The notes: a model not told the origin generated them from the letters alone. A stretch of DNA of 64,000 nucleotides from Candidatus Kaiserbacteria bacterium (GCA_023267655.1 JAHFMV010000002.1:7228-71227); one strand, 5' to 3'; numbered from the stretch's first letter, positions 4,044-46,549 are shown. Numbers and translations are program-made.

Positions 4044-4153
4044 TGGTGTTCTCCATCGTGCTGTGCAGTCTCTCTGTTAGTCTCTCTTGTCCGTCGCGGA
4101 TAGTAGCACGTCGCGAGAACGGCTCAAATGGCGTCATTTGAGCCGATCACGTT

Positions 4154-22265: not shown

Positions 22266-23348
22266 CTACCGCTTGCTGGTGATGGCTTTTTTGTACACAT
22301 CGAGGTGTTTGAGTGCTTCTCCTGTTCCCTTTGCGACGCAAAATTGCGGGTCTTTTGCCATTTGCGCTTTCACACCCGTGCGGCGGAAAATGAGTTCCGG
22401 TAGATTGCGCAGCTGCGACGATCCGCCGGTCATAATGATGCCGTTATCGATAATATCGCTCGCGAGTTCCGGCGGCGTCTCTTGCAGCACGTCTTTGATC
22501 GCGCCTACCATCGTTCGCAATTCTTTTGCCATCGCGCGGACGATTTCGTTTGACGAAAGTTCGACGGAACGTGGCAATCCTGTCAGATAATCGCGGCCTT
22601 TGATTGTCATCGAGAGTTCGTCTTCAATCGGTACCGCAGAGCCGATGCGGATTTTGATTTGCTCTGCCATCTTGTCGCCAACCGCGAGATTGTGATTCTT
22701 TTTTACATAATCGACGATCGAGCGGTCGAGTGAATTTCCCGCACATTTGACCGATGTCGATGCGACGATGCCGCCGAGTGAAATCACCGCGACGTCGGTC
22801 GTGCCACCGCCGATGTCGACGACCATGTGTCCGCGCGCTTCGTAAATGGGAATGCCCGCGCCTATCGCCGCTAGGATCGGTTCTTTGACGACGTACGCGT
22901 GACGCGCTCCTGCTTTTGTCGCAGCTTCCACAACTGCGCGACGCTCTGTCGACGTAACTCCCGCCGGCACGCTCACCATGACTTCCGGCCGAAAGAGATT
23001 CCACTTCCCCAGTGCTTTCCTAATGTAATATCGCAACATCGCTTCGGTCACACGGTAATCGGCGATGACGCCGTCTTTCATCGGGCGATAGGCTTTGATC
23101 GCATCCGGCGTGCGGCCGACCATTTCTTTTGCTTCGTTGCCAATCGCGAGGATACGGTTGTCTTCGACGGAAATTGCGACAACCGAGGGTTCATTTAAGA
23201 CAATGCCGCGCTTGGGGACGAATACGAGGACAGTCGTGGTGCCGAGGTCGATACCGAGTTTGGGAGAAAAGAAAGACATACGAAAGGTGTCAGGTTTTAA
23301 GGACAAGGTTCTAGGGAAATACAAAGACGGCTTCGCTATTGTATGCAT
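22266..23348 (-). CDS. Second MreB/Mbl-like actin homolog; the likely start is MSFFSPKLGIDLGT, near 23279.
   Basis: Motifs DLGTTTV and DIGGGTTD. It is a paralog of the MreB at 16001..17071. A terminator lies at 23357..23390. Confidence 0.8.
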   Translation of the reverse strand: MHTIAKPSLYFPRTLSLKPDTFRMSFFSPKLGIDLGTTTVLVFVPKRGIVLNEPSVVAISVEDNRILAIGNEAKEMVGRTPDAIKAYRPMKDGVIADYRVTEAMLRYYIRKALGKWNLFRPEVMVSVPAGVTSTERRAVVEAATKAGARHAYVVKEPILAAIGAGIPIYEARGHMVVDIGGGTTDVAVISLGGIVASTSVKCAGNSLDRSIVDYVKKNHNLAVGDKMAEQIKIRIGSAVPIEDELSMTIKGRDYLTGLPRSVELSSNEIVRAMAKELRTMVGAIKDVLQETPPELASDIIDNGIIMTGGSSQLRNLPELIFRRTGVKAQMAKDPQFCVAKGTGEALKHLDVYKKAITSKR

Positions 23349-23786: not shown

Positions 23787-24065
23787 TTATTTTACCACAG
23801 ATTCTTTGTGCTTGCCGGGATTTAATTCGTAAAAAAAGCGCTTGGAAAAATTCCCCGAATCGTCGCACACCCGCTTTAAATAGTACAAATCTTTGGTCGG
23901 GATTTGTTCAAGGATTTTCCCCATCCGCGGCATCGTGATTTTCGGCAATCCATCGCGCATGCGACCCGGATTGATGCGGTCGATGAAATACCGCATCAGC
24001 TCGCCCCGTTCGGTCTCACGGATCCGGGCTTTGGTTTGCTTAAGGTTGAGGGCGATGTGCTTCAT
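23787..24065 (-). CDS. Hypothetical protein.
   Basis: 92-aa ORF. Confidence 0.35.
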   Translation of the reverse strand: MKHIALNLKQTKARIRETERGELMRYFIDRINPGRMRDGLPKITMPRMGKILEQIPTKDLYYLKRVCDDSGNFSKRFFYELNPGKHKESVVK

Positions 24066-24627
24066 ACCCGGTTAGTACAATTTCGAATTGTTCGTGCCGT
24101 TGCAACATGCGATTACATCGAATGCGGCAGCGCGATTAACAAAGTTTACATTCTCGATAATAGGCCACAGTAAAGGTGATTCGAAATTGTCCTACCGGGC
24201 ATGGGGACATTGTACATTATATCGGGGTGTGTTATAAATGTACGAAGAGATTGAATATTGATTTGGAATCGGACGGGTCGGTATTGCTGCCTCCCCGCCC
24301 GTCCGGTGCTACGCAGACCGCTGCCTGCCCGAAGGAATTGCTGGCCAGCACCTTGGCGCGGAAAGCGTAGGAGGCGAGTGGAAGTGAACTACAATAGCAG
24401 TCGAAGGTATTTGATCGTCCCTTCGGCTCAACGAAGCCAACTTCGCTCGCCTCTTTTTATTCAGCGACCTGACCTCCGCGTCAGGTCGCTTTCTTCTTGA
24501 TAGAATATCTTTGGTACAAGAGACGGCGGTTTGCCGACGGGTTAAACGACAGCCGGCTCGGGCGAGTACCGTTTTACGCGGGCTCGCCCTTCCCTTTTTC
24601 TGGCTGTACTCGTATGATTCGACGATG

Positions 24628-25179
24628 CGTTCAATAGTACAGACTGGCGATCCGGTGTTGCGGGCAATCGCGAAAGAAATTCCACTCGATCAGATCGGGT
24701 CATCTCGTATTCGCAGCATTATTGCTGATATGAAATTGCTCCTCGGGAAAGAAGAATTTGGTGTTGCGATCGCCGCGCCGCAAGTGGGAGAAAGTCTGCG
24801 GATGTTTGTCGTTGCAGGTTCGGCTGCGCTCAAGCGAAAATATTCGGAGAAAAAGCGTGAGAAAGGAGAAACGGAGGACTACGAAAAGTTCGAAGGGCAT
24901 CCCACAGACGACGAAGCCTACATCAATCCCATTCTCATCAAAACATCCCGCGGAAAAAAAGACAAACACGAGGGCTGCCTCTCGGTGCGCGGCAAGTGGG
25001 GTGAAGTTCCCCGTGCGGAAAAGGCGACGGTACGTGCATATAATGAGCGCGGCGAAAAGTTTGAGCGTGGTGCCTCGGGATTCCTCGCGCATATTTTCCA
25101 ACACGAGATGGATCATCTTGACGGCATTTTATATATCGACAAAGCGACCTCTGTATATGATGATGCAGACAAAAAATAA
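24628..25179 (+). CDS. def: Peptide deformylase.
   Basis: Motifs GCLSV and QHEMDHLDG. The ORF-track start at 24511 is too far upstream because it would cover terminator-like hairpins; MRSIVQTGDPVLR is the likely start. Confidence 0.8.
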   Translation, partial: RSIVQTGDPVLRAIAKEIPLDQIGSSRIRSIIADMKLLLGKEEFGVAIAAPQVGESLRMFVVAGSAALKRKYSEKKREKGETEDYEKFEGHPTDDEAYINPILIKTSRGKKDKHEGCLSVRGKWGEVPRAEKATVRAYNERGEKFERGASGFLAHIFQHEMDHLDGILYIDKATSVYDDADKK

Positions 25180-25195
25180 GGATGAGGGACAAGGG

Positions 25196-26059
25196 ATGAG
25201 AGATAAGAGGAATGCATTTGCATTCTTTGGAACTCCGGAGCTTGCTGTCGAAATCCTCGATGAACTTGAGGGAGCCGGTTACGTGCCTTCGCTTGTCGTC
25301 ACGATGCCCGATCGAGCGCGTGGGCGCGGTATGGCATTGCGAGAAACGCCTGTGGGTGCGTGGGCGAAAAAGCGAGGTATCGAAGCTCTCAAGCCCGAGA
25401 AATTGGACGATGCGTTTGTCGCAGAGGTTGCCAAGCGCGATCTCCAGTTCGCGATCGTTGTAGCGTATGGGAAAATCATGCCGAAATCGCTGCTCGAGAT
25501 CCTAGTTATGTACAACATTCATTATTCTCTCCTGCCACGATGGCGTGGTGCGACGCCGGTAGAAGCCGCTATCCTCGCAGGAGATGTGGAAACCGGCGTC
25601 GTGATACAGAAAATCGTGCACGAACTCGACGCGGGGCCTATCGTTGCGGTTGAGAAAACTGAAATTGGTGCGGATGAGACCGGCGTTGCGTTGCGTAGCC
25701 GTTTAAACTATATTGCAAAAAAATTACTCGTTCGCATTCTGCCGGAAATACTCGCGGGCAACATGAAACTTGTCGAACAAGACAAAACACGCGCAACGTT
25801 TTGCGGAAAGATTTCAAAAGAGGATGGACTCTTGGATTTTTCCGACGGAGGTGAATTAAATTATCGGAAATTCCGCGCATATTTCGGCTGGCCGGGCGTC
25901 TGCACTTTTTTTGAACGAAGCGGAAAACGGATCCGTACGATCATCGTGAAAGCGCACAAGGACGGCGCACAATTCGTCATCGACATAGTAAAACCCGAAG
26001 GCAAAGGCGAGATGCCGTATGAGGATTTTGTACGTTCTGGAGCAAAAGTTGCACGTTAA
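25196..26059 (+). CDS. fmt: Methionyl-tRNA formyltransferase.
   Basis: A formyltransferase N-terminal domain (HYSLLPRWRGATP) and C-terminal domain. It lies immediately downstream of def. Confidence 0.8.
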   Translation: MRDKRNAFAFFGTPELAVEILDELEGAGYVPSLVVTMPDRARGRGMALRETPVGAWAKKRGIEALKPEKLDDAFVAEVAKRDLQFAIVVAYGKIMPKSLLEILVMYNIHYSLLPRWRGATPVEAAILAGDVETGVVIQKIVHELDAGPIVAVEKTEIGADETGVALRSRLNYIAKKLLVRILPEILAGNMKLVEQDKTRATFCGKISKEDGLLDFSDGGELNYRKFRAYFGWPGVCTFFERSGKRIRTIIVKAHKDGAQFVIDIVKPEGKGEMPYEDFVRSGAKVAR

Positions 26060-26184
26060 CGAATTGTACGTTATCGTTGCCGAGGAATGCAAAGTCCGGG
26101 AAGACACCCCGTATTCCCGACGGGACACCAACTCTCCCGGCAAAATCCCAAGGCGTTGCCTCTCGCGCGCCTTGGGGTTCTTTT

Positions 26185-26553
26185 TTAATAACTCCGTATA
26201 TCGCCACGCCGCGCCCATCGTTTGAGACGAGCACCGAGTCGCCGCGCAATTGACGTATGTTTACCTTTATCTTTCCGCAACTGCTGCAGCATTTCATCTT
26301 TGGCGATATCTATCGCTGCATTCACGCTTTCTTCCTGCGCAACAGCATATAGGCGCTCGCCGAAATTCGTGATCACGATTTCTGCTTTCCACACGTCGCC
26401 CTGCTGCGAATGCCCGACCGCGCGGCCGATCTCCACTTCGCAGCGCGCGGCGCTATCGTGCACCAGCCGCTCGAGCGTCGCGATTTTCTCGTCGAGGTAG
26501 GCGGCGGTTTCCGGCGTCATCTCGTAATCACTCGCTTTGATGCGGATTTCCAT
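26185..26553 (-). CDS. hpf: Ribosome hibernation promoting factor (HPF/RaiA family).
   Basis: About 120 aa with a sigma-54-modulation/YfiA-like pattern. Confidence 0.6.
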   Translation of the reverse strand: MEIRIKASDYEMTPETAAYLDEKIATLERLVHDSAARCEVEIGRAVGHSQQGDVWKAEIVITNFGERLYAVAQEESVNAAIDIAKDEMLQQLRKDKGKHTSIARRLGARLKRWARRGDIRSY

Positions 26554-26557
26554 GGTG

Positions 26558-26872
26558 TCATTGTACCACCTCGAACAGTTTTGTCCGCGCGCGCATGCCG
26601 GTGAGAAATTTCACCGATGTCACAGGCACATTGAAATGCTGTGCCACGAGCACCTGCACACGGTCGTTTGCTTCGCTCCTTTCGGCCCGCTCCTTCACCG
26701 CCGCGGTGAATTGGTTTTCGCCCGTCTTCTCAAACCTCTCCTTCTTTGCCTTCGGCGTCACGCGCACTTTGATCCGCATTGCTCCAGTATACAGAATTTC
26801 ATTAAACTGCGCTGAAATATTGACCCCGTTAGAAAACCTCACGATCGACGGTCTGAAGTAAAGTTCGTGCAC
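26558..26872 (-). CDS. DUF167 (YggU-like) protein; the likely start is MRIKVRVTPKAKK.
   Basis: KVRVTPKAKK...GKANxAL-like pattern. Confidence 0.5.
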   Translation of the reverse strand: MHELYFRPSIVRFSNGVNISAQFNEILYTGAMRIKVRVTPKAKKERFEKTGENQFTAAVKERAERSEANDRVQVLVAQHFNVPVTSVKFLTGMRARTKLFEVVQ

Positions 26873-32282: not shown

Positions 32283-32350
32283 GGCTATCTGATTGCAATC
32301 GCTCTATTTCGCGCTAGAATGGCGCCAGCCTTCAATTTTTGAAGGTATAT

Positions 32351-32658
32351 TCCGCGGTGGCGCAACGGTAGCGCAGCTCGCTGTCGAAGGCAGCTTCTTA
32401 GAGGAATCTAAGAATGCAAACGAGGAGAATTGCTGGAAGCCCGAACTTGAAATAGTGGGTAATCAGCAGCCGAGCTCACGAAAGTGAGAAGGTTCAGAGA
32501 CTATCCGAAAGGAGTAGTCCCATGAGATAGGCACAGCCGCCATCTCACGGGACGAAGCACCTCGCACCCAGAACGGGTGATGATATAGTCCACCCCCTTT
32601 GGAAACATTGGGACAAAGTGTAACGAGTTGGTTGTAGGTTCGAATCCTACCCGCGGAG
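32351..32658 (+). tRNA. tRNA-Asn (anticodon GUU) interrupted by a group I intron in the anticodon loop.
   Basis: 5' exon 32351-32384: TCCGCGG acceptor, D-arm GCGC-AACGGTA-GCGC, anticodon stem GCTCG, loop CTGT. 3' exon 32621-32658: TAA, CGAGT, variable TGGTT, T-arm GTAGG-TTCGAAT-CCTAC, acceptor CCGCGGA, discriminator G. The spliced anticodon loop is CTGTTAA. Confidence 0.7.
32385..32620 (+). ncRNA. Group I self-splicing intron within tRNA-Asn.
   Basis: P-like AATTGCTGGAA, Q-like AATCAGCAGCC, R-like GGTTCAGAGACTA and S-like GATATAGTCC elements are present. The IGS GCAGC sits 6 nt into the intron and can pair with the exon end GCUGU. The intron ends in G. Confidence 0.7.
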
Positions 32659-34245
32659 CTCGGTTGGATGATGTGCGAATGCAAGTACCGTGTCAAACGG
32701 TTTTCGCAGCGTAAACTCTAGCGTTTTTTCGTTTACGGTCGGGTTCTGAAGTAAATACCCCAAAATTGTCCTTTTCTCATCAGGTTCAGAACTTTCGAAG
32801 ATTTCACCCATGCGGCGGGACAAGTCGAGGACAGTGCCAACGTGGGTGTGATACTGATGATCCGCCTTTGTGTATGCTTCTAATTCCGCGTTCAAACGGT
32901 ACTGTTCTTCCTTCAATTCCTGCAACTTATTGTCGTAGTCTTCCTGTGTAATACCCATGTCGAGACGCATATCAAGCAGTGCGTTGACCTTGCGCTGCGC
33001 TCTATCGTATTCGCCACGAATGCGTGCTATTTGCCGCTCATGGTACACAGCTTCGTGCTCATTGAGCTCACGAAGTTCTGCCACCAGCCTTTCCTGCACC
33101 TCATGCGGAATCATCTTGAAAGCATCAAATACGGCGTGTACTGGTTCCAAAAGCTTTTTCTCTGGGACATAGTCTCGCTTGCATATCCCTTTCGCATTTG
33201 TACAGGAATAATAAATGAATTTACCTTTCTTTATTTCGGGACTCAGCATGCAACCGCAGTTGTTGCAGCGCAAAAGACCTTTCAACACATATGGCTTTGA
33301 AAGAAGCTTTGAGCGACGGGTGCTTCTACCGCGAAGCACGTCCCGACATTCTTGGAACAAATCAGGTGTAATGAGCTTCGGGTACTTGTGAGGATATTCG
33401 CCATATTTTTTTGATACCGCCATGCCGCACAAAAACGTGTCTTTAAGCATCAGCTCTATATTGCTTCGTGATAACTTTTGCCCCTTAAGACCGCGTAAAC
33501 CCATGCGATCAGCCTCTTTCCACAACGTTGTTATGGAATAGCCACCTGTAGCGTACATTTCAAACAATTTACGTATGATAGGAGCGCGTACCTCATCGAG
33601 AATAATATCGGTTTCGATTACCTCGCCCTTCTCGTTTCGCCGCTGCTTTCGGACGTAGCCGATGCGGGGGTTTCCTGTCCACTCACCAACTCGCCGCTTC
33701 TGCTCGAATGCTCGTTTTACATTATCGCTGATCGCGTTCGAATAATACTCAGCAAGGTTCAGACTGATGCCGAATTGGAATTTACTATTTGCGGTTCCAT
33801 CGCCGTTTATAACTTGATTGTCCGAGGCGAAATGTAATTCGATTTTCCCACTTCTCGCCAATTCGCACAGTAACGCCACCCGTTTATCGAAGACGTTGCG
33901 TGAAAAACGATCTACCTTATCGAAGCACACAGCGACCTTTTCGAACTTCGCCCTTGCCTGTATATACAGCAAAGCTTCGTCGAACACGTCTCTCTTTTCC
34001 TTGTACGCACTTTCGTCAAAACTAAACACTTTCTCGACCTCAAACCCCTTACGTCGACAGTGATTTTTCATTCGCTCGATCTGTGCCGGCAAAGAATTAC
34101 CTGCTTCCTGCTGCTCTGCCGTGGACACTCTGGCGATATTGATTGATTTCATTGTGTTTTCTTTAATTTTACCCCATATCCGCGACGCGAAGTCACGTAA
34201 AATGGCTGATAACTTTTCAAGGATGCTGTCATTTTTTTGAACCAC
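32647..34245 (-). CDS. Large serine recombinase (integrase); the likely start is MKSINIARVST, near 34152.
   Basis: An N-terminal resolvase domain with catalytic Ser (ARVST) and DRFSRN, followed by a recombinase domain, a zinc ribbon (CNNCGC...CTNAKGIC) and a coiled coil. The last codons and stop overlap the tRNA-Asn 3' end. Confidence 0.85.
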   Translation of the reverse strand: MVQKNDSILEKLSAILRDFASRIWGKIKENTMKSINIARVSTAEQQEAGNSLPAQIERMKNHCRRKGFEVEKVFSFDESAYKEKRDVFDEALLYIQARAKFEKVAVCFDKVDRFSRNVFDKRVALLCELARSGKIELHFASDNQVINGDGTANSKFQFGISLNLAEYYSNAISDNVKRAFEQKRRVGEWTGNPRIGYVRKQRRNEKGEVIETDIILDEVRAPIIRKLFEMYATGGYSITTLWKEADRMGLRGLKGQKLSRSNIELMLKDTFLCGMAVSKKYGEYPHKYPKLITPDLFQECRDVLRGRSTRRSKLLSKPYVLKGLLRCNNCGCMLSPEIKKGKFIYYSCTNAKGICKRDYVPEKKLLEPVHAVFDAFKMIPHEVQERLVAELRELNEHEAVYHERQIARIRGEYDRAQRKVNALLDMRLDMGITQEDYDNKLQELKEEQYRLNAELEAYTKADHQYHTHVGTVLDLSRRMGEIFESSEPDEKRTILGYLLQNPTVNEKTLEFTLRKPFDTVLAFAHHPTELRG

Positions 34246-35291
34246 TCATCTGCTCTCATGCCTCTTAAGCGCGGCGCTGTCGTATTGAATTTACGTGCAA
34301 AGCGAGACCACGTTCGCGCGTTCACGAAGGCATCAAGCACGATGCGGAGCTCACGCATACCACCGCAATTACGCGCAAGCATGATGAGACCAACGAGCTC
34401 TATAGCTTCTGCCGCTTTTGCTGGATGCGTCGCCAGTACTTTATACAGCACGTGCTTTGCAGATCTTTTAGGTCCGAATATGACGCCGCGCCAGTTTAAT
34501 GTCGCCGCATCCCAGTAATCGCGAAGGATCGTTTGGCTCTTTTGCGATGAAAAGACATCGGAAAACGCGGGATTCATCCCGAAACCGTGCCGCGCGAATA
34601 CAGCGTTTAACTTTACCCTAGCCGTGAGTTGTACCTCAAAGCGAAGGATATTTTGCCCGCGCAATCTGGCGGCAAGTCTTGTCTGTGCCTGTTGCCACTT
34701 TTTGCCTCTGCCCGTTTTTTTTGATAGTTCAGCCACCTTGTCATAGAACGTGAACGAATGCTGACTCGCCGTCGCCTTGAGACCCTGACCACCATTGCGA
34801 TAGTGCGTGTATGACACATCAACACCTCGGCGGACCATCAGCTTTTCCAGCTCTTTCATGACCCCCGTAATGGGTGCGCGTTTCCCAAGCAAGACATTTT
34901 TGGAATAATCTACCCGCATGATCTTCGCATTTCGAATCTCTTTTGCCGTGAGGTCGATCCCCATCATGCTTAGCCGAGATTGCAGAACCGAAAGAACCAC
35001 GTCGAAATCCGCATCAACCACTTCGTCCACATTATTGCCGTAAAGCAGCTTCGGAACAGAGAACTGGATCTTAATCCTTGATGTCACCCCATGCTTCTTA
35101 CTCATGTTGTTTACCCCTGTAATTTGCGGGAAATAGTGCTCGCTTCCACGCTCTTCCTTGGAGGGATCACGATAAAAGGTCTCATATCCTTTCCCTCGCG
35201 TACCGCCATCCCACATCGGTCTGCCTTTGGTGTCCACATCGCGTGCCGTTAAATTTCCTTGCGACACCGCGAGAATAACAGTGTCGATCAT
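34149..35291 (-). CDS. Putative rolling-circle replication initiator (Rep_trans / phage gene II-like).
   Basis: RVDYSKN and FTFYDKVAE motifs resemble the Rep_trans RxD..D and YDK signatures. It is adjacent to iteron-like repeats. Confidence 0.4.
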   Translation of the reverse strand: MIDTVILAVSQGNLTARDVDTKGRPMWDGGTRGKGYETFYRDPSKEERGSEHYFPQITGVNNMSKKHGVTSRIKIQFSVPKLLYGNNVDEVVDADFDVVLSVLQSRLSMMGIDLTAKEIRNAKIMRVDYSKNVLLGKRAPITGVMKELEKLMVRRGVDVSYTHYRNGGQGLKATASQHSFTFYDKVAELSKKTGRGKKWQQAQTRLAARLRGQNILRFEVQLTARVKLNAVFARHGFGMNPAFSDVFSSQKSQTILRDYWDAATLNWRGVIFGPKRSAKHVLYKVLATHPAKAAEAIELVGLIMLARNCGGMRELRIVLDAFVNARTWSRFARKFNTTAPRLRGMRADEWFKKMTASLKSYQPFYVTSRRGYGVKLKKTQ

Positions 35292-35482
35292 ACGGGCTGT
35301 CGCTCTGTATACAGATGCGAATTAACCCGCCTATCAATTCGGAGAAGCAGATCGTAGAGGCGTACAAGATTTCTCTCGCCGCTAAAATCATCTAATAACG
35401 CAGCAATGGCTGCACTTTTCTCGATTCCGCGCGGCTGCGGATCGCGGGACGCATTGTGCATCCCGATTTCTTTCTCGCTCAT
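35288..35482 (-). CDS. Small hypothetical protein upstream of rep.
   Basis: 64-aa ORF overlapping the rep start by 4 nt. Confidence 0.25.
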   Translation of the reverse strand: MSEKEIGMHNASRDPQPRGIEKSAAIAALLDDFSGERNLVRLYDLLLRIDRRVNSHLYTERQPV

Positions 35483-35600
35483 AGTGAGCTCTGTCGTTTA
35501 CACCCACAGGATCGCGTAAAACGCGCCCTACAGGTTGCGAGATAGGAAGTGGCGGGTCGGACTAGACCCCATCACGCCAAATAATGGCTTTAGACATCAT

Positions 35601-35701
35601 TTGACTACGTTGTGCCGCTTATTCGTACACCACTTCGGTACGAAATACATATTGAAACGCTTTGTTGCGGGATTTTCCCCGCCTTTGTGCCGCTTTATTC
35701 A
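35601..35701. repeat. Iteron-like direct repeats TTGTGCCGCTT(T)ATTC, followed by an AT-rich stretch; candidate origin.
   Basis: Two copies 85 bp apart (35601.. and 35686..), then the AT-rich run caatttatttttatttacttattcc at about 35780. Confidence 0.35.
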
Positions 35702-36015
35702 AACTTATACAGCGTAAACCACTTAACTTACCGAGAAGTATATTCGAGATTAACGAAAAGTCAATACCATTTTGTGTCGCAATTTATTTTTATTTACTTA
35801 TTCCATGCCGCGAGGGCATTTTTTCTCTGAAATCGGAGTGTATGTCCTCGGACTTACTACAAACTCTTGAAATGGCTCAAGAGAGCCGTTTCTATTTTTG
35901 TCGCGACCACGTGCGTGTGTCTCTTTGAATCTTCGCCGCAATTGCCAACATCCATATCGAAACACTGCATACACCCCTCACGACTTGGAAAGGGTTATTA
36001 ATAACTATTTGCACC

Positions 36016-36207
36016 ATGAAAATGTATATTGAGCCGCTGTACCGCCTCGTGTGGGACGAGGCGCAGGGCGCGTACGTCGAGACGGGGGAGCTTCTGGGCT
36101 ACAAAGCTGTGGATTGGCTCGGGCAGATCATCGCATTCGGCGAGAGCCGCGAGGCGGCGTACGAGAATGCGCTGGACGCGGCAGCAGACGTCCTCGGGGG
36201 TGTGTAG
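36016..36207 (+). CDS. HicB-like (UPF0150) small protein.
   Basis: 63 aa. YVETGELLGY...GESREAAYENALDA resembles the HicB_lk antitoxin fold. Confidence 0.4.
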   Translation: MKMYIEPLYRLVWDEAQGAYVETGELLGYKAVDWLGQIIAFGESREAAYENALDAAADVLGGV

Positions 36208-36212
36208 CTGAC

Positions 36213-37352
36213 CTATTCTTTGTGTTCGACGATAAATTTTGCTCGCTGATACAGCTCGTCAAAAGTGAGAATGTCGATGCCATGAATCGACTTGCGAAAT
36301 CGTTGAAAAGTCTCCCGCTTGCTCCGGCTGTCGAGCTGCGAGAGCGAGCCAACCACGATGATTCCTTTCGGCTGAACCGTATAAACGCCTCTACCTTCCA
36401 GCTCGTCTCTGTTGTCCGGCTGCTCTGACCCCGACTTGTCCCACGTCGCCATGTTAGCTTCGATTTGGGACACCGCATCAGTTAACTCTTTCGACAAGCT
36501 CCATGCCCCCGCTCTGATTTCCACGCTACCCTGCAACAGCGGGGTTGCCGGCGTCTTTATTTCAACGAGGACTGTGAAATCTATGTCGCCCGTCGTGGAG
36601 GTAAGGTAATCGCCCTTCTGTCCTCCTTTACCATCCACGCGCGTGCCACCATAATGAGGCTGCGCCTGTTCCTGTTTGAGGATTTGGTAGTTAAGACCAT
36701 AGCCAAAAATCCATTTGTTTTTCTCAAAAAAGCCCTGCCACTCACTCTCCGCGCGGGGAAGCGTTTCGAGCGCTTTTTCAAATCGCTCAAGCACGTCGCG
36801 CCGTTTGAGAAGCTGGTTTATATCCTCATCCGACAACTTTACCTCCGCTGCAGACGAGAGTTTCTTGATGATGCTCACCACGCTCTCCGTATCGCGACCA
36901 CGCAAAGCGGCGACAATCTCCGCTTCGCCCTGCGATATGAGCGAAAAAGCGCCCTGCGGTATCTCTATATCGCGCAAGGATTGCAGGAATGAAATGAGTT
37001 GCCAAAAATTCTCGTGGCATTCCTCCAAACTAACGTTCGCTTTGAGCACGTAAGTGTTTTCCTCGATAGCCCCGCTTTCTTCGAAGATCTTTTGACTTTT
37101 GTCTCGTATGGAGAACGCGAGGCGCGGGGTGAATTTTTCGCCCTTCTTGATGAGGGACACTTTGCAGACGTAGCTCACGCGCGGGCGTTCGTGCAGCACA
37201 AACTGCGTAATCAGCCGTCTTTGCTGGGTGTGGTAGAAGTAGTAAAAGTTATCGACTGCCGGCGCAGAGTTGATCTGGAGGTGGGCAAAGTCATGTTTAC
37301 CAATGACGAAATCCTCGCCATCGCTCCACCCAATAAGCTCGCTGAATTTCAT
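36213..37352 (-). CDS. Shedu-like DUF4263 PD-(D/E)xK nuclease-domain protein.
   Basis: C-terminal GDIDFTVLVEIKTP (D...EIK PD-ExK motif) and GIIVVGS. The size of about 380 aa matches SduA. Confidence 0.5.
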   Translation of the reverse strand: MKFSELIGWSDGEDFVIGKHDFAHLQINSAPAVDNFYYFYHTQQRRLITQFVLHERPRVSYVCKVSLIKKGEKFTPRLAFSIRDKSQKIFEESGAIEENTYVLKANVSLEECHENFWQLISFLQSLRDIEIPQGAFSLISQGEAEIVAALRGRDTESVVSIIKKLSSAAEVKLSDEDINQLLKRRDVLERFEKALETLPRAESEWQGFFEKNKWIFGYGLNYQILKQEQAQPHYGGTRVDGKGGQKGDYLTSTTGDIDFTVLVEIKTPATPLLQGSVEIRAGAWSLSKELTDAVSQIEANMATWDKSGSEQPDNRDELEGRGVYTVQPKGIIVVGSLSQLDSRSKRETFQRFRKSIHGIDILTFDELYQRAKFIVEHKE

Positions 37353-37354
37353 AC

Positions 37355-37885
37355 GTGAGGGCTTTCAACATAGCACTTCCCGCCCTTGCAATAAAGCAAG
37401 GAGACAGAGGGCTCCCGTGCTATATTGTGCGGCATATGAAGACGACGGGCGTCGTGCTGGCAGGCCTATTCTCGATTTTGCTCGTCTTGATTATCCTCAA
37501 ATTGATGGGCTACAGCTTCAATAAAGACTACTTCAGCTTTGATAAGCAGCAGTGCATCGCGAGCGAGGATGAGACCCGCGCAGGCCATTCAGGTATACAG
37601 GGGTGCATATTTTGGATGAGAAACGATTACTTGGAAAAAACGCAGTCGTGGAAAGACGAGTTTGCAAAAGACACAGACTACTGCAATGAAAAATACGGAG
37701 GAGATACCACAAAGGCCGCAAGCTATGCGGGGTTCAAATCACTGAGCGACCCAAGATGCAACTATGGTCCATTTACGAACCAAAAACGGCAAGAAAACTG
37801 GGCATACCTCGTTTCAAAAGAACAAGACGGATTTTACGCATATTGTGTCGAACAAATCTGTCCCGACCAACGCCTTTTCAAATAA
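37355..37885 (+). CDS. Membrane-anchored cysteine-containing hypothetical protein; the likely start is MKTTGVVLAG.
   Basis: An N-terminal TM helix, then a Cys-containing extracytoplasmic domain. Confidence 0.4.
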   Translation: MRAFNIALPALAIKQGDRGLPCYIVRHMKTTGVVLAGLFSILLVLIILKLMGYSFNKDYFSFDKQQCIASEDETRAGHSGIQGCIFWMRNDYLEKTQSWKDEFAKDTDYCNEKYGGDTTKAASYAGFKSLSDPRCNYGPFTNQKRQENWAYLVSKEQDGFYAYCVEQICPDQRLFK

Positions 37886-37943
37886 AGGGAATGCCGCAGT
37901 TGCCACGAATAGCCAGTAAACTGCCGAGTGCTATGATAATGGT

Positions 37944-38288
37944 ATGAAATTAGAAACATTTTTTGGATTGCAGAAAGAAGTACAAGAGTGCGTGGAAAAG
38001 TTTAATTTCAACTGGACTAACTATGTGCAATACATCCACCTTGTTGAAGAGGTAGCGGAATTGGGGGAAGCGCTCACAGTGCATCAGGGAGACAGAAAAG
38101 CTGGTTCTGGTGAAAATGCATTAGCCGACCACCACGACACAAGGGAAGAATTGGGGGATGTTTTATTTAATGTGATACAGATAGCAAATCAGTTAAATCT
38201 CAATCTTGATGAGGTAATGGAGGAAACTTTTGCACGATACGAGGAAAAGTTAAAAAGGCTTAAGAATCAGGCTGAGACGTCCGCATAA
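37944..38288 (+). CDS. MazG-like nucleotide pyrophosphohydrolase.
   Basis: EEVAELGEA and EELGDVLFNV, the all-alpha NTP-PPase motifs. Confidence 0.65.
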   Translation: MKLETFFGLQKEVQECVEKFNFNWTNYVQYIHLVEEVAELGEALTVHQGDRKAGSGENALADHHDTREELGDVLFNVIQIANQLNLNLDEVMEETFARYEEKLKRLKNQAETSA

Positions 38289-39931
38289 AGCACAGACGCG
38301 GGGAGTACGTGGACGAAGGTGCGATAATCCCCTATACAATCAGCACAGTCATGAAGGAGGATAGTGCCGGAATGTAAGCCAGCTCCTTCACCGCTGCTGC
38401 CCACGCTTGAGTTCTGAACTCGTCCAGCCTGGGGAGCCCAGACTTGGATTGACTTGAATTCGCCGGTTATCGAATCGGGATTTTGGCGCGCGGCGCGAAG
38501 CGCCGCGTAGAGAGGATGCGCCGTGCCGGAGATTTTTTGATTGTAGAGTTGCAGGTTCGAGCCGAAGATTTTTTGAATTGCGGATTTTTTGGCGGGGAGA
38601 GAGGGGTTGCTTGGGATTTCAGCAAGGTTTTCTGCCTCCTTTATCCACTCACGCATGGGTTCGAGCCACGCGCTGCCGTCCCGCTCCAAACGCACAATTT
38701 GTTCCAATAACGTCCGCTTGTGGGACAACAGTGCGCGACGCTTCGCCAAGTATGCGTCGCGCTCAATTTCCTGCGCAATATAGAGATCCAAAACGCGGTC
38801 GAGTTTGCGGTCTATTTCGTTCATTTCGTCCCGTAAGCCAGAAATTGTCTGCGCGCTTGTGCGCTCCGCATCGCGTTCATCCACTTGCGTTCTGCGCCCG
38901 AAGTCGTGCGCCCATTCGGGCGGCAGGACAAAGAGCGAAAGCAGATTCGAAATATCAGTAACGAGATTTTCTTCACGCACGTAGGATTGCGTGCAGTGAA
39001 TCGACTTTTTTGTGCAGCGATAGTAAACATATCGGTGAAAATTGCCGTTCTTTTGGTGTTTCTCACGCACCTCGGCCGTGATAGCCATGCCACATTCACC
39101 ACACGACATGAGACCGCAAAATACTTGCGGCTGTGTCGTCGCGGCTTGCGGATGCCCTCGTTCGACAACTACTTTTTGTACTTTATCGAACAGCCGCTTG
39201 TCCACGATTGGCGTATGACGTCCCTCATATAGTTCGCCCATGTAGAGAAAAAGACCGCAATAAAACGGATTGGTGAGAATGAATTTCACGCGGTCGTCGT
39301 GGATACGATTACCGTATAAACTGCGCACTCCATTGTCGTAAAGAAACTTACCAATGTCTTCTACTCGCGAATTGCCTTTAGAATATTTCTCAAACGCGGC
39401 CTGAATTATTTTCGATTTCTTCTTATCAAGCATGATTGTTTTAGTGCGCGGATCGTTTCGATACCCCACCGGCGCAGTACCCGGGAAATCACCGCGCCGC
39501 GCTTTCGCGCGAAGCCCTCGCGCAGTGTTCGCGCTCAATTGTCGGATATATTCATTTGCCATGCCGAATTCAACCGACATGATGAGCACATTGTCCTGCG
39601 GCAAATACGTCCGATCGTGGGTTCGTATTTGCTGGATGATTCCCTGTTGCAATAGCCAGCTAATTTGTCCACTGTCCACGGGATTGCGCGAAAGTCGATC
39701 TATCTTCCAACACAAAATGCCCTGCGCCTCGCCCTTTTGGAGTCGCGCCATCATCTCGCTGAACACGGGGCGGCCGGGCATCTTCGCCGAGCGCTTTTCT
39801 ACAAACTGCTCGACTATTTCTAGCCCCTCCCGCAGCGCGAGCGCGTACAACTCTGACAACTGCGCCTCGATAGATAGGACTTGCTTGTCCTCGACATCAG
39901 TGCTTTTGCGGGCGTAGAGGAAATATTTCAT
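38267..39931 (-). CDS. Large serine recombinase (second copy, with a different sequence).
   Basis: YARKSTD...DRLSRN resolvase domain, a recombinase domain, a zinc ribbon and a coiled coil. Its C-terminal coding region (38444-38616) is one arm of a 173-bp inverted repeat. Confidence 0.85.
   Translation of the reverse strand: MKYFLYARKSTDVEDKQVLSIEAQLSELYALALREGLEIVEQFVEKRSAKMPGRPVFSEMMARLQKGEAQGILCWKIDRLSRNPVDSGQISWLLQQGIIQQIRTHDRTYLPQDNVLIMSVEFGMANEYIRQLSANTARGLRAKARRGDFPGTAPVGYRNDPRTKTIMLDKKKSKIIQAAFEKYSKGNSRVEDIGKFLYDNGVRSLYGNRIHDDRVKFILTNPFYCGLFLYMGELYEGRHTPIVDKRLFDKVQKVVVERGHPQAATTQPQVFCGLMSCGECGMAITAEVREKHQKNGNFHRYVYYRCTKKSIHCTQSYVREENLVTDISNLLSLFVLPPEWAHDFGRRTQVDERDAERTSAQTISGLRDEMNEIDRKLDRVLDLYIAQEIERDAYLAKRRALLSHKRTLLEQIVRLERDGSAWLEPMREWIKEAENLAEIPSNPSLPAKKSAIQKIFGSNLQLYNQKISGTAHPLYAALRAARQNPDSITGEFKSIQVWAPQAGRVQNSSVGSSGEGAGLHSGTILLHDCADCIGDYRTFVHVLPASVLYADVSA
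38444..38616. repeat. Inverted repeat IR1, copy 1, inside the recombinase 3' coding region.
   Basis: Near-identical to the reverse complement of 40929-41113. The two copies are confirmed by shared peptides PSLPAKKSAIQKIFGSNLQLYNQK... on opposite strands. Confidence 0.7.
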
Positions 39932-40080
39932 CGTTATTTGAAGGTTACCCTAGAATTTTGTTATCCACATTCATTTGAAATTCACCTGTTGACATGCTAA
40001 TATGATGCTAATCCATTCATTTGGAGGTGGATAGTCCGAATGGGCTAGCGTGAGGGAGTCCCGCAAGGGGCTTTTTCATT

Positions 40081-40884
40081 TTAAGTGAGAAATATCTTTC
40101 CATATCCATCAATTCTCCCGTTATAGAGGTGGCGATTATATTTTTCCGCTACGGCCTTGCAAAGTTGTTGACCATAACTACCCCCCGGACTATCGACTTT
40201 TCCTTTTGCGTGTAGAAGTTCCATGCGGCATGGATAAGCAAGAATGTCGGCAATTTGTAATCCCGTAACATTCGCACTTTTCGGCTGGATCTTTATTTCT
40301 TTCGTAGTTAGAGAATTTTGAAAGAATTCCGGCTTACGAAAATTTGTACCGCTCTCCCACACGTTTTGGTATGCTTCTTTGAGCTGCATATCTTCACGAC
40401 CGCCGCGACTTTCCGCCATCACATCACCCTTAGCATTGTAATAATTGAGAAATCCGCAGTAGCGCTCGAGTAGTGCAACAACGCAATAGTGATATGGATG
40501 TAAGGCTATATTGCCGTACCTTTTCACATGAGCATTTTTATCAATTACAACCGTCAACAGCTTAAAGTCGTACTTTTTCAGAGTGACTAAAAAATCGTCG
40601 TTAAAAGCTCTTTCTTTTGCCGGATCTAGTAGTCGCCAAAACGGGCCTTTTTTATTGATGAGCTCTTTACGATGAAGAATGACGGGTTCGTCCGGATTAT
40701 GCGGAAAATGTCGCTCTTTAAATTCTGTGAAGTCAGGATGGATGACTTTTTTATAGTAGTCGTTTTCAACAATAACACCTGTGATGCCCAAATACCGACT
40801 TACCACGTTATCTTCATTGCGCGAATACACGTGATCTCCGGCCTCATCGAGATAAAGTCGATAGCGTTTTACATCCATGGGCAA
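40081..40884 (-). CDS. DUF3800-family protein.
   Basis: N-terminal YRLYLDEAGD (DEAG/DESG-type motif) and a length of about 270 aa. Confidence 0.5.
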   Translation of the reverse strand: MPMDVKRYRLYLDEAGDHVYSRNEDNVVSRYLGITGVIVENDYYKKVIHPDFTEFKERHFPHNPDEPVILHRKELINKKGPFWRLLDPAKERAFNDDFLVTLKKYDFKLLTVVIDKNAHVKRYGNIALHPYHYCVVALLERYCGFLNYYNAKGDVMAESRGGREDMQLKEAYQNVWESGTNFRKPEFFQNSLTTKEIKIQPKSANVTGLQIADILAYPCRMELLHAKGKVDSPGGSYGQQLCKAVAEKYNRHLYNGRIDGYGKIFLT

Positions 40885-40928: not shown

Positions 40929-41113
40929 GCATGGATTCCGTATCCCCTCTCTCCCCGCCAAAAAATCTGCAATTCAAAAAATCTTCGGCTCGAACCTGCA
41001 ACTCTACAATCAAAAAGTCTCCGGCACGGCGCATCCTCTCTACGCGGCGCTTCGCGCCGCGCTCCAAAATCCCGATTCGATAACCGGCGAATTCAAATCA
41101 ATCCAAGTCTGGG
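40929..41113. repeat. Inverted repeat IR1, copy 2.
   Basis: Reverse complement of 38444-38616 with a few mismatches. Read on the plus strand it continues into IR2 and would give an alternative recombinase C-terminus, ...QVWAQLYQIARTYFSKHDE*. Confidence 0.7.
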
Positions 41114-41382
41114 CTCAACTATACCAAATAGCTCGAACCTATTTTAGCAAACATGATGAGTGATCGGACACGCGCCGCGTGAGTGGTGACGTGTCCCAAC
41201 AAGGTACGCTCCGCGTCCGTGCCAACTCTGACGCCGCCCGCCGCAGCAAAGCTGCGGCAACCCCGAAAGAAACCGCTTCCCATGCATCTCTGTTCGGCGG
41301 GGGTGGGATGCGTATTGAAATGGAATGGGCGGTTTCTTTCGGGGTTCTGCCCTGTGGGCAGGGGGCGACAAACCCCTCAATC
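41113..41382. repeat. Inverted repeat IR2, copy A (about 250 bp), followed by a 14-bp-stem palindromic hairpin at 41383-41415.
   Basis: Identical 80-aa translations on opposite strands (41139..41384 minus and 44817..45059 plus) show this is a DNA inverted repeat. The hairpin is AAACCCCTCAATCA-CCCAG-TGATTGAGGGGTTT. Confidence 0.7.
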
Positions 41383-44799: not shown

Positions 44800-45076
44800 A
44801 ATCAAATACCGGGTAAATGATTGGTTCCCGCCGCCCCCTGCCCTTGGGCAGAACCCCGAAAGAAACCGCCCATTCCATTTCAATACGCATCCCACCCCCG
44901 CCGAACAGAGATGCATGGGAAGCGGTTTCTTTCGGGGTTGCCGCAGCTTTGCTGCGGCGGGCGGCGTCAGAGTTGGCACGGACGCGGAGCGTACCTTGTT
45001 GGGACACGTCACCACTCACGCGGCGCGTGTCCGATCACTCATCATGTTTGCTAAAATAGGTTCGAGCTATTTGGTA
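44800..45076. repeat. Inverted repeat IR2, copy B, with an inner-side 10-bp-stem palindrome at 44794-44824.
   Basis: Reverse complement of 41113-41382. The hairpin is GAACCAATCA-TTTACCCGGTATT-TGATTGGTTC. Confidence 0.7.
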
Positions 45077-45152
45077 TAGTTGAGCAGATTTCTTAGCTTT
45101 ATCTTGCAAGGCATTTTTAGGTCCCCTTGTTGGACGCTCGAACCTAAATTTG

Positions 45153-46543: not shown

Positions 46544-46549
46544 CTGCAA
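45542..46549 (-). CDS. IS30-family DDE transposase; the likely start is MAHTHIGKEDW, near 46504.
   Basis: An N-terminal HTH, plus the catalytic motifs DNGxEF and NTNGLLRQYFPK. Confidence 0.8.
   Translation of the reverse strand: MQANCNPPRGIHSAKMAHTHIGKEDWSCIARMLRAGHSLSEIARTIGKDKSSLGRHVKDYGGRNGYDVREVRRRKHMKRVDAMQGIRVIRGSLLRFMTKELKLHKSPEQIAGVLRKRGGSLVASTIYRYLKERAPHLKQYLRSSKGKYRRKRGTKIREKAREQGKKRRIDERPAIVQKRGRIGDWEGDTLMGRDKRVRIVSFVDRRSGYLIAFVLPKMRSRLLTSLALEHFRHIPKKKRRIFTLDNGIEFSDWERLEKKTGMTVYFAYPYHAWERGTNENTNGLLRQYFPKTLDFNLITPAELAHIVRRLNDRQRKRLGFVSPRRVFWRRRTGCN

What the first reader, a model, noticed from the sequence alone, without database searches (positions are those of the whole stretch)
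32351..32658. A group I intron interrupts the anticodon loop of tRNA-Asn(GUU).
The tRNA exons (34 + 38 nt) fold into a canonical cloverleaf with anticodon loop CUGUUAA and discriminator G. They are split after U35 by a 236-nt insert. The insert carries the R (GGTTCAGAGACTA) and S (GATATAGTCC) core elements, P- and Q-like elements, an internal guide GCAGC able to pair with the 5' exon end with a U-G wobble, and a terminal G. Bacterial tRNA group I introns are best known in Leu(UAA), fMet, Ile and Arg tRNAs. An Asn(GUU) host gene, and the use of this tRNA as an integration site, is uncommon.
Basis: partly seen in the sequence, partly recalled or inferred. Interest (0 to 1): 0.6.

Follow-up and report, generated by a model that had tools for sequence, protein, structure and literature searches.

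The report
Self-splicing intron inside a tRNA-Asn gene

Summary
Exons 32351-32384 and 32621-32658 join into a canonical tRNA-Asn(GUU). The 236-nt insert (32385-32620) matches Rfam Intron_gpI above its gathering score (62.2 bits, E 2e-13). I modelled P1-P9, P9.0 and the extra helices P7.1/P7.2. On 38 homologous split tRNA-Asn genes, 93% of cells pair, against 36-44% when partners are slid, and 53 pairs show compensatory changes. The U.G wobble in P1 is invariant. The P9.0 pair next to the terminal G covaries (CG 27, UA 9). Together these fix the junction at 35/36 and reject ARAGORN's alternative call, Thr(UGU) at 33/34.

The claim of rarity does not hold. This is the 'Asn.4Ug' class of Williams 2020. 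Nakagawa et al. 2026 described tRNA-Asn(GUU) 35/36 subgroup-IA introns as enriched in Patescibacteria and spliced two in vitro. The window is itself from Patescibacteria (Kaiserbacteria-like). Its pre-tRNA is about 75% identical to the in vitro-spliced example and about 79% identical to a published Paceibacteria one.

A side observation: an island carrying large serine recombinase genes abuts the tRNA 3' end, and the same arrangement recurs in relatives.

Verdict: real, well supported, already known, low interest.

The parts
32293..32320 (+). Promoter-like site (TTGCAA-16-TAGAAT) about 30 nt upstream of the tRNA start
   Evidence: Consensus scan, 9 of 12 matches. Weak evidence; function is inferred only.
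32351..32384 (+). 5' exon of tRNA-Asn(GUU): acceptor 5' strand, D arm, anticodon stem 5' strand, loop C32 U33 G34 U35
   Evidence: ARAGORN on the joined exons. Exon helices pair in 100% of cells across 38 homologues, with compensatory changes (helices 1-3).
32385..32620 (+). Group I intron, 236 nt, subgroup-IA-like, with no ORF for a homing endonuclease
   Evidence: Rfam RF00028 at 62.2 bits, E 2.2e-13. Structure supported by covariation. About 75% identical to an in vitro-spliced published intron.
32380..32394 (+). P1: exon GCUGU (32380-32384) pairs with internal guide GCAGC (32390-32394); U32384.G32390 marks the 5' splice site; one-pair extension C32385-G32389; GAA loop
   Evidence: U.G is present in 38 of 38 homologues (helix 4). 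The extension pair covaries GC 20, CG 8, AU 7 of 38.
32395..32414 (+). P2 hairpin (8 bp) with a GGAA loop
   Evidence: All 8 pairs show changes on both sides (helix 5). The loop keeps the form GNAA in the alignment.
32421..32425 (+). P3 5' strand (CGAGG); pairs with 32560-32564
   Evidence: 98.4% of cells paired; 3 of 5 pairs compensatory (helix 6).
32431..32468 (+). P4 (32431-32436 with 32463-32468) and P5 (32440-32443 with 32456-32459), with A-rich J4/5
   Evidence: P4 pairs in 100% of cells, with one compensatory pair. P5 has 3 of 4 pairs compensatory (helices 7-8).
32469..32493 (+). P6 (32469-32470 with 32492-32493) and P6a (32475-32479 with 32484-32488, GAAA loop)
   Evidence: P6a has 5 of 5 pairs compensatory (helices 9-10).
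32497..32503 (+). P7 5' strand inside element R (G32497, bulged A32498, GACUA 32499-32503); pairs with 32586-32591; presumed guanosine-binding helix
   Evidence: Pairs in 100% of cells but never varies. The loci were retrieved with this very sequence, so this is uninformative (helix 11).
32504..32553 (+). P7.1 (32504-32506 with 32511-32513, GAAA loop) and P7.2 (32517-32521 with 32549-32553; 32523-32528 with 32542-32547), inserted between P7 and P3'. This placement is the mark of subgroup IA.
   Evidence: P7.1 is present in 33 of 38 homologues. P7.2 has 9 of 11 pairs compensatory (helices 12-14). Both appear in the free fold.
32560..32564 (+). P3 3' strand (CCUCG)
   Evidence: helix 6.
32565..32579 (+). 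P8 hairpin (5 bp)
   Evidence: 97.4% of cells paired; 4 of 5 pairs compensatory (helix 15).
32586..32591 (+). P7 3' strand inside element S (UAGUCC), preceded by J8/7 AUGAUA
32592..32620 (+). P9.0 (A32592-U32619, C32593-G32618) enclosing the P9 hairpin (32595-32597 with 32610-32612; 32600-32601 with 32606-32607; GAAA loop), then omega-G at 32620
   Evidence: The P9.0 pair covaries CG 27, UA 9, UG 1 (helix 16). P9 has 4 of 5 pairs compensatory (helix 17).
32621..32658 (+). 3' exon of tRNA-Asn(GUU): U36 A37 A38, anticodon stem 3' strand, variable loop, T arm, acceptor 3' strand, discriminator G. CCA is not encoded (the next bases are CTC).
   Evidence: helices 1, 3, 18.
32647..34245 (-). Large serine recombinase gene, convergent with the tRNA. 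Its last codons and TAG stop (32647-32649) overlap the tRNA 3' end. It is the first gene of an inserted island.
   Evidence: Pfam Resolvase, Recombinase and Zn_ribbon_recom. phrog_95 integrase, E 2e-66. Homologues occupy the same position in L077, L024 and L002.

Best explanation
This is a functional tRNA-Asn(GUU) gene of a Patescibacteria (Kaiserbacteria-like) genome. It is interrupted between anticodon nucleotides U35 and U36 by a 236-nt self-splicing group I intron of the IA type. The gene is transcribed as a 308-nt precursor. The intron's guide GCAGC pairs with the exon end GCUGU to form P1, and the U35.G wobble marks the 5' splice site. An exogenous guanosine bound in P7 attacks there. 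Then the terminal G (32620), positioned by the 2-bp P9.0, enters the same site and the freed 3'-OH of U35 attacks the 3' splice site. This ligates the exons into a 72-nt tRNA, to which CCA is added afterwards. Shown here: the exons, the Rfam match, every helix by covariation, both splice-site determinants, homology to published members of the class, and the phylum. Inferred: catalysis itself, by homology to a relative about 75% identical that was spliced in vitro; exon alignment by the anticodon stem in place of P10; and expression.
For: Rfam RF00028 matches at 62.2 bits against a gathering score of 50, E 2.2e-13, over the full model. The joined exons give tRNA-Asn(gtt), and their best match among E. 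coli records is annotated tRNA-Asn (weak, E 0.01). In the 38-sequence alignment A1, my P1-P9, P7.1/P7.2 and P9.0 model pairs in 93.1% of cells, against 36-44% for slid partners. 53 pairs change on both sides, and 0 of 500 shuffles reach any of the measures. U.G at the 5' splice site occurs in 38 of 38 sequences, and the P1 extension pair covaries. P9.0 covaries CG 27, UA 9. The free fold has z = -5.4 and finds the same helices. The precursor is 75.5% identical to the GCA_016700035.1 pre-tRNA-Asn that spliced precisely in vitro, and 79% identical to the Paceibacteria GCA_016699245.1 example (sequences from Table S3 of PMC13011429; splicing assay). The phylum is Patescibacteria: the best named relatives of the ProRS-like protein, at 75-78% identity, are all Kaiserbacteria, Parcubacteria or Patescibacteria, and the gene order MreB, Fmt, tRNA-Asn is shared with Patescibacteria loci. 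No other tRNA-Asn lies in the 64 kb.
Against: There is no experimental or RNA-seq evidence for this copy. No P10 can be modelled. P7 and the R/S elements are invariant only because the homologues were retrieved with them, so they add no covariation support. Only 64 kb of the genome was seen, so an intron-less tRNA-Asn elsewhere cannot be excluded. A shifted junction two bases upstream also satisfies the U(-1)/G(omega) rule in this copy.
Confidence: 0.93

Rival explanations
1. The gene is a tRNA-Thr(UGU) with the intron at 33/34. The same 236-nt length is shifted two bases upstream, as ARAGORN calls it when allowed introns.
For: ARAGORN -i on the unspliced sequence calls tRNA-Thr(tgt), intron 32-33. 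In this copy the shifted junction also has a U before the 5' site and a G at the intron end (...CGCU|GU...AAAG|UGUAAC).
Against: In P1 the shifted U33 pairs with A in a Watson-Crick pair, whereas U35 makes the invariant U.G wobble (38 of 38). The first intron base after U35 covaries with the base 5' of GCAGC. P9.0 covaries and places omega-G at 32620. About ten of the 38 homologues end in AUG, so the shifted frame would end in A, not G. The tRNA body is U1-A72 with G73, and its best E. coli match is annotated tRNA-Asn. PMC13011429 documents this exact mis-call by ARAGORN and tFind and confirmed the 35/36 junction by sequencing the spliced product.
Confidence: 0.02
2. The intron is decayed and no longer splices, so the locus is a tRNA pseudogene and asparagine decoding relies on another copy elsewhere in the genome.
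For: Only 64 kb was examined. A mobile island has been inserted right at the tRNA 3' end. There are no expression data.
Against: This copy keeps every invariant and nearly invariant column of the 38-sequence family, and all its helices pair. The exons form a flawless cloverleaf. The island restores the tRNA 3' end rather than truncating it. PMC13011429 reports that genomes rarely hold both an intron-containing and an intron-less copy for the same anticodon.
Confidence: 0.04
3. The match is a chance resemblance, or a different kind of insertion (a mobile element or an assembly chimera) that merely contains R- and S-like motifs.
For: None beyond the general caution that motif matches can arise by chance.
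Against: The covariance-model E-value is 2.2e-13 over the full model. At least 45 independent genomes carry homologous inserts at the identical tRNA position, with compensatory substitutions in nearly every helix.
Confidence: 0.01

Closest known systems
Patescibacteria tRNA-Asn(GUU) group I introns at position 35/36, subgroup IA (Nakagawa et al., mSystems 2026, PMC13011429)
   Same: Same host tRNA, same insertion point and same phylum. Same guide (GGCAGC), the same R element and a near-identical S element. Same two-base ambiguity that makes ARAGORN and tFind call Thr(UGU). The window's precursor is 75.5% identical to the in vitro-spliced GCA_016700035.1 example and 79% identical to the Paceibacteria GCA_016699245.1 example.
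   Different: Nothing of substance. This copy has a minimal P1 loop (GAA) and a longer P7.2 (37 nt), and it keeps the P7.1 hairpin that the tested Saccharimonadia intron lacks. It has no homing endonuclease gene, like most members.
'Asn.4Ug' class of tFind (Williams 2020, bioRxiv 10.1101/2020.01.27.920355)
   Same: Intron after the fourth anticodon-loop nucleotide of tRNA-Asn, with U at -1 and G at omega. It is presumably among the 17 new settings that paper adds to the four classical ones. The class name itself is quoted in PMC13011429.
   Different: That survey is computational. Its table is held only as an image, so I could not read counts per class.
Classical bacterial tRNA introns of subgroup IC3: Leu(UAA) 34/35, fMet 33/34, Arg(CCU) and Ile(CAU) 36/37 (cyanobacteria, Agrobacterium, Azoarcus)
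   Same: Group I ribozymes in the anticodon loop, about 200-250 nt, with no ORF and with P1 made from anticodon-loop nucleotides. GNRA-type loops on P2 and P9.
   Different: Different host tRNA and position. This intron has P7.1/P7.2 between P7 and P3', which IC3 introns lack by established knowledge of the Michel-Westhof subgroups. PMC13011429 classifies 25 of 28 introns at 35/36 as IA, against 81% IC overall.
Phage group I introns, for example in DNA polymerase genes of Felix-O1-like Salmonella phages
   Same: About 75% nucleotide identity over the P3-to-P7 5' part of the core (bases 68-161 of the precursor).
   Different: The hosts are protein-coding genes. Only a third of the sequence aligns, and there is no tRNA context.

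Membership tests
Group I intron (Rfam RF00028) | Covariance-model score at or above the curated gathering score | tested here: met
   62.2 bits against 50, E 2.2e-13, model positions 1-253 of 253.
Group I intron (Rfam RF00028) | P1 helix formed by an internal guide with the 5' exon end, with a U.G wobble at the splice site | tested here: met
   GCUGU pairs with GCAGC. U.G occurs in 38 of 38 homologues, and the pair beyond the splice site covaries GC 20, CG 8, AU 7.
Group I intron (Rfam RF00028) | Terminal guanosine (omega-G) at the 3' splice site | tested here: met
   G32620. It is positioned by P9.0, whose second pair covaries CG 27, UA 9, UG 1.
Group I intron (Rfam RF00028) | Conserved core helices P3-P8 including the P3/P7 pseudoknot | tested here: met
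   P3, P4, P5, P6a and P8 all pair in 73-100% of cells, with compensatory changes. P7 pairs but is invariant by the way the loci were retrieved, so it is uninformative.
Group I intron (Rfam RF00028) | P10 pairing between the guide and the 3' exon | tested here: not met
   No complementarity between the 3' exon UAAC and the bases 5' of GCAGC, here or in the homologues. P10 is dispensable in many group I introns, and the anticodon stem can align the exons (inference).
Group I intron (Rfam RF00028) | Guanosine-dependent self-splicing | not testable with these tools
   Shown in vitro for a relative about 75% identical (PMC13011429), not for this copy.
Subgroup IA | Extra helices P7.1 and P7.2 between P7 and the 3' strand of P3 | tested here: met
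   52-nt insertion in the Rfam alignment after GACUA. P7.1 is present in 33 of 38 homologues and P7.2 has 9 of 11 pairs compensatory. Both are found by the free fold.
Subgroup IA | Best score with a subgroup-specific covariance model | not tested
   No subgroup models are available here. PMC13011429 assigns 25 of 28 introns at 35/36 to IA.
tRNA-Asn(GUU) 35/36 intron class of Patescibacteria (Asn.4Ug) | The host is tRNA-Asn(GUU) and the intron lies between nucleotides 35 and 36 | tested here: met
tRNA-Asn(GUU) 35/36 intron class of Patescibacteria (Asn.4Ug) | Sequence homology to published members | tested here: met
   75.5% and 79% identity over the whole precursor to two Table S3 entries. 73-76% identity to Paceibacteria loci L086, L014, L070, L113 and L084.
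tRNA-Asn(GUU) 35/36 intron class of Patescibacteria (Asn.4Ug) | The host genome belongs to Patescibacteria | tested here: met
   All named relatives of the ProRS-like protein at 75-78% identity are Kaiserbacteria, Parcubacteria or Patescibacteria. Five-gene synteny with Kaiserbacteria locus L042, and MreB 72-78% identical to Patescibacteria loci.
IC3 tRNA introns (Leu, fMet, Arg, Ile) | Insertion at 33/34, 34/35 or 36/37 in those tRNAs, with a compact core lacking P7.1/P7.2 | tested here: not met
   The position is 35/36 in tRNA-Asn, and P7.1/P7.2 are present.

The most novel reading that the evidence does not exclude
[quoted passage not shown] These islands rebuild the tRNA 3' end from the antisense of the recombinase's own last codons and carry defence cargo such as Shedu. 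Such an integration hot spot does not appear in the papers I read. The intron itself would remain ordinary.
Probability: 0.3. Interest if true: 0.4.

Novelty: already known. Interest (0 to 1): 0.15.

Why it matters
It matters mainly for annotation. Standard tRNA finders miss this gene or mis-call it as tRNA-Thr(UGU). A genome like this would therefore be scored as lacking tRNA-Asn, which lowers completeness estimates for Patescibacteria MAGs. That is the point already made in PMC13011429. The copy adds one more Kaiserbacteria-like example to a described, experimentally validated class and does not change what is understood about group I introns. The adjacent serine-recombinase island is the only part that might repay further work.

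Tried and rejected
(1) P10: I looked for complementarity between the 3' exon and the bases 5' of the guide, in the window and in 37 homologues, and found none.

(2) Thr(UGU) junction: considered because ARAGORN proposes it. Rejected on the P1 wobble, the P1 extension pair, P9.0 covariation and homologues ending in AUG.

(3) att repeats: I searched 32.3-50 kb for direct repeats and for copies of the tRNA 3' end with up to 3 mismatches, and ran short-word BLAST. Nothing significant came up. That is not unexpected for serine recombinases, so the right-hand boundary of the island is not defined.

(4) Source genome: an exact-sequence look-up of the ProRS-like protein found no record. MreB and Shedu look-ups returned only short metagenome contigs without taxonomy. 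Taxonomy came instead from named homologues.

(5) Is the island a phage? The Rep protein has no relative in viral contigs. PHROGs gave only integrase, a weak replication protein and MazG hits, with no structural genes. It is not shown to be a prophage.

(6) Phage collection search with the precursor: only partial core similarity to phage DNA-polymerase introns.

Full report
**Observation**

The sequence at 32351-32658 is exactly as described.
- Joining 32351-32384 to 32621-32658 gives a 72-nt sequence that ARAGORN calls tRNA-Asn(gtt). It has a regular cloverleaf, anticodon loop CUGUUAA, U1-A72 and discriminator G.
- The 236 nt in between (32385-32620) match the Rfam group I intron model RF00028 over its full length. 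The score is 62.2 bits against a gathering score of 50, with E 2.2e-13.
- Neither plain ARAGORN nor the Rfam tRNA model sees a tRNA here. They find only four other tRNAs in the window and no second tRNA-Asn.
- The unconstrained minimum-energy fold of the 308-nt precursor has z = -5.4 against shuffles. It recovers the acceptor, D and T arms and P1, P2, P3, P4, P5, P6, P6a, P7.1 and P7.2 on its own.

**Which junction**

When allowed introns, ARAGORN calls the unspliced locus tRNA-Thr(UGU) with the intron two bases upstream. In this copy that alternative also has a U before the 5' site and a G at the intron end, so the choice had to be settled by comparison with relatives.

I scanned genome contigs with the R and S elements of this intron (GGTTCAGAGACTA, 50-80 nt, GATATAGTCC). 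For 45 of them, a U(-1)/G(omega) junction after the fourth anticodon-loop base yields a tRNA-Asn(GUU). All 45 end in GAG (A72 and discriminator G73), and 42 of them begin UC. The other three have an 8-nt D loop, and my fixed 34-nt extraction cuts off their first base. About ten of the 38 aligned homologues end in AUG rather than GUG. In those the shifted frame would end in A, so only the Asn junction obeys the rule.

**Structure**

I aligned the window with 37 of these precursors that have introns of at most 262 nt (alignment A1). I wrote a model from the window sequence and the Rfam alignment:
- P1: exon GCUGU with guide GCAGC
- P2
- P3, P4, P5, P6 and P6a
- P7, with a bulged A
- P7.1 and P7.2, between P7 and the 3' strand of P3
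- P8
- a 2-bp P9.0 enclosing P9
- the four tRNA helices

Results on A1:
- 93.1% of cells form standard pairs, against 36-44% when the 3' partners are slid by 1-3 columns.
- 53 of 87 pairs change on both sides.
- None of 500 shuffles reaches any of the measures.
- Compensatory changes occur in P2 (8 of 8 pairs), P3 (3 of 5), P5 (3 of 4), P6a (5 of 5), P7.2 (9 of 11), P8 (4 of 5) and P9 (4 of 5).

One caveat applies. P7 and the R/S elements never vary, but the loci were retrieved with exactly those sequences, so this says nothing either way.

**Splice-site determinants**

- The U.G wobble between U35 (32384) and the first G of GCAGC (32390) is present in all 38 sequences.
- The first intron base pairs with the base just 5' of GCAGC, and this pair covaries: GC 20, CG 8, AU 7, unpaired 3. 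P1 therefore continues across the splice site, as in other group I introns.
- At the other end, the two bases after P7 (AC, 32592-32593) pair with the two bases before the terminal G (GU, 32618-32619). The C-G pair is replaced by U-A in 9 sequences and by U.G in one. This P9.0 places omega-G at 32620.

Together these fix the junction at 35/36 and reject the Thr reading. No P10 can be drawn, here or in the relatives. I infer that the anticodon stem, which covaries perfectly (helix 3), holds the exons together instead.

**Subgroup**

The roughly 50 nt between the P7 5' strand and the P3 3' strand form two helices, both supported by covariation. By established knowledge of the Michel-Westhof classification, P7.1/P7.2 in that position mark subgroup IA and are absent from the IC3 introns of tRNA-Leu, fMet, Arg and Ile. 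I could not run subgroup-specific models.

**What is known**

Williams (2020, bioRxiv 10.1101/2020.01.27.920355) extended the four classical split bacterial tRNA types to 21 settings. A later paper refers to the one after the fourth loop base of tRNA-Asn as Asn.4Ug.

Nakagawa et al. (mSystems 2026, PMC13011429) report the following:
- In 95 complete Patescibacteria genomes they found 22 split tRNAs, of which 15 are tRNA-Asn(GUU) at 35/36.
- ARAGORN and tFind often mis-call them as Thr(UGU) 33/34, the same error I reproduced.
- They spliced a tRNA-Asn and a tRNA-Asp example in vitro, sequenced the product, and abolished ligation with an omega-G to C mutation.
- Across 4,934 complete genomes, 19 of 28 introns at 35/36 were from Patescibacteria, and 25 of the 28 were subgroup IA.

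From their Table S3 I took two precursors and aligned them with the window:

| Published precursor | Status | Identity to the window precursor |
|---|---|---|
| GCA_016700035.1 | spliced in vitro | 75.5% |
| GCA_016699245.1 (Paceibacteria) | listed example | 79% |

Both share the window's guide and core elements.

**Host organism**

- The window's ProRS-like synthetase (17086-18345, minus strand) has named relatives at 75-78% identity. All are from Candidatus Kaiserbacteria, Parcubacteria or the Patescibacteria group.
- MreB (22266-23348) is 72-78% identical to Patescibacteria loci.
- The genes between MreB and the tRNA (23790-26872, including Fmt) lie in the same order next to the split tRNA-Asn in Kaiserbacteria and Paceibacteria loci L042, L066 and L084.
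- The closest introns (73-76% identity over the whole precursor) are from Paceibacterota, Taylorbacteria and Nomurabacteria MAGs.

The window is therefore from the phylum, and broadly the class, where this intron type is the rule.

**Mechanism**

Shown by sequence and covariation: P1 with its wobble, the P3-P9 core, P9.0 and omega-G, and intact exons.

Inferred from the established two-step group I pathway and from the published assay on a homologue:
1. An exogenous guanosine attacks after U35.
2. Omega-G replaces it in the P7 site.
3. The 3'-OH of U35 attacks after G32620 and ligates the exons.

CCA is not encoded (the next bases are CTC) and must be added afterwards. A promoter-like site lies about 30 nt upstream (weak). 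The intron has no room for a homing endonuclease gene, so it is probably inherited vertically, like most members of the class.

**Surroundings**

Directly 3' of the tRNA lies a convergent large serine recombinase gene (32647-34245). Its stop codon and last codons overlap the tRNA's acceptor and T-stem 3' strands. After it come:
- a Phage_CRI-type replication protein
- a Shedu (SduA) defence gene
- a MazG-like gene
- a second large serine recombinase (38267-39931)
- a DUF3800 gene

G+C drops from 0.54-0.56 (26-32 kb) to 0.47-0.51 across 32-44 kb. Homology to the sequence downstream of tRNA-Asn in L042 and L084 resumes only near 48.6 kb. The tRNA 3' end has therefore served as an integration site, probably twice.

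Homologous recombinase genes end within about 0-180 nt of the tRNA-Asn 3' end, in the same convergent orientation, in L077, L024, L002, L113 and L070, and probably L046. L084 and L048 carry short repeats of the tRNA 3' end 70-80 nt downstream. I found no att repeats in the window, no phage structural genes and no viral relatives of the Rep protein. The right-hand boundary and the nature of the island remain open.

**Verdict**

It is not novel: same tRNA, same position, same subgroup hallmark and same phylum as a class described in 2020 and validated in 2026, with 75-79% identity to published members. Its practical value is as an annotation correction, since a tRNA-Asn would otherwise be scored as missing or mis-called as Thr. 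Interest is low. The recombinase island at the tRNA 3' end is the only lead that might be new.

Noticed in passing
window 32647-40884 (possibly to about 48600): An island abuts the tRNA-Asn 3' end. It holds two large serine recombinases (32647-34245 and 38267-39931, both minus strand), a Phage_CRI-type Rep (34149-35291), Shedu SduA (36213-37352), MazG-like (37944-38288) and DUF3800 (40081-40884). G+C is lower than in the 26-32 kb stretch just before the tRNA. Homology with relatives' downstream sequence resumes only at about 48632. It looks like two tandem integrations. No att repeats or phage structural genes were found.
   Followed up: partly
L077:4944-6449, L024:2164-3642, L002:2018-3451, L113:6531-7955, L070:2047-3465: Homologues of the window's serine recombinase (29-53% identity) lie convergent to the split tRNA-Asn and end within about 0-180 nt of it in other Patescibacteria MAGs. 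In L077 and L024 they overlap the tRNA 3' end as in the window. This suggests a recurrent tRNA-Asn attachment site for this recombinase family.
   Followed up: partly
window 41113-41352 and 44846-45085: A perfect 240-nt inverted repeat flanks a 3493-nt segment. The segment carries a YbaK-like editing-domain ORF, a SAM_HAT_C ORF, two unknown ORFs and an HTH ORF. Each arm contains an 18-nt internal palindrome stem. It could be an invertible segment, a composite transposon or an assembly artefact. An rve transposase gene (45542-46549) lies just beyond.
   Followed up: partly
L084 (about 77 nt 3' of the tRNA) and L048 (about 70 nt 3' of the tRNA): Short direct repeats of the tRNA-Asn 3' end lie just downstream of the gene (ACCCGCGGAGC in L084; CCCAC(C/T)CTCGGAGCAAATAAA in L048). 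They look like scars of past integration or excision.
   Followed up: no
L042:4020-4670: A Kaiserbacteria relative has the same split tRNA-Asn, but its 5' exon (4020-4053) lies about 330 nt upstream of where the intron core alignment begins (4381). It therefore has a roughly 330-nt insertion near P1/P2. I did not examine it for an ORF.
   Followed up: no
L026, L065, L072, L082, L112, L116 (Gammaproteobacteria, Vibrio, Photobacterium); L063: The identical R...S core also occurs in introns after the fifth loop base (36/37) of CAU-anticodon tRNAs in Gammaproteobacteria, and at 35/36 in a tRNA-Asp(GUC) of a Campbellbacteria MAG. This fits the published IA tree that places Patescibacteria Asn introns near Pseudomonadota Ile2/Leu introns.
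   Followed up: no
L030, L031, L040, L085, L090, L101 and others: Several TPA-assembled MAGs labelled 'uncultured Gammaproteobacteria bacterium' carry split tRNA-Asn genes. In L031 and L101 the exons are identical or nearly identical to those of Falkowbacteria or Patescibacteria MAGs (for example L015, L032). The taxonomic labels of those records may be wrong.
   Followed up: no
window 16001-17071 and 22266-23348: There are two MreB paralogues 5 kb apart, about 42% identical to each other by way of their shared hits. PBP2 (11558-13369) and an RseP-like protease lie nearby. This is a rod-shape gene cluster in a Patescibacteria genome.
   Followed up: no
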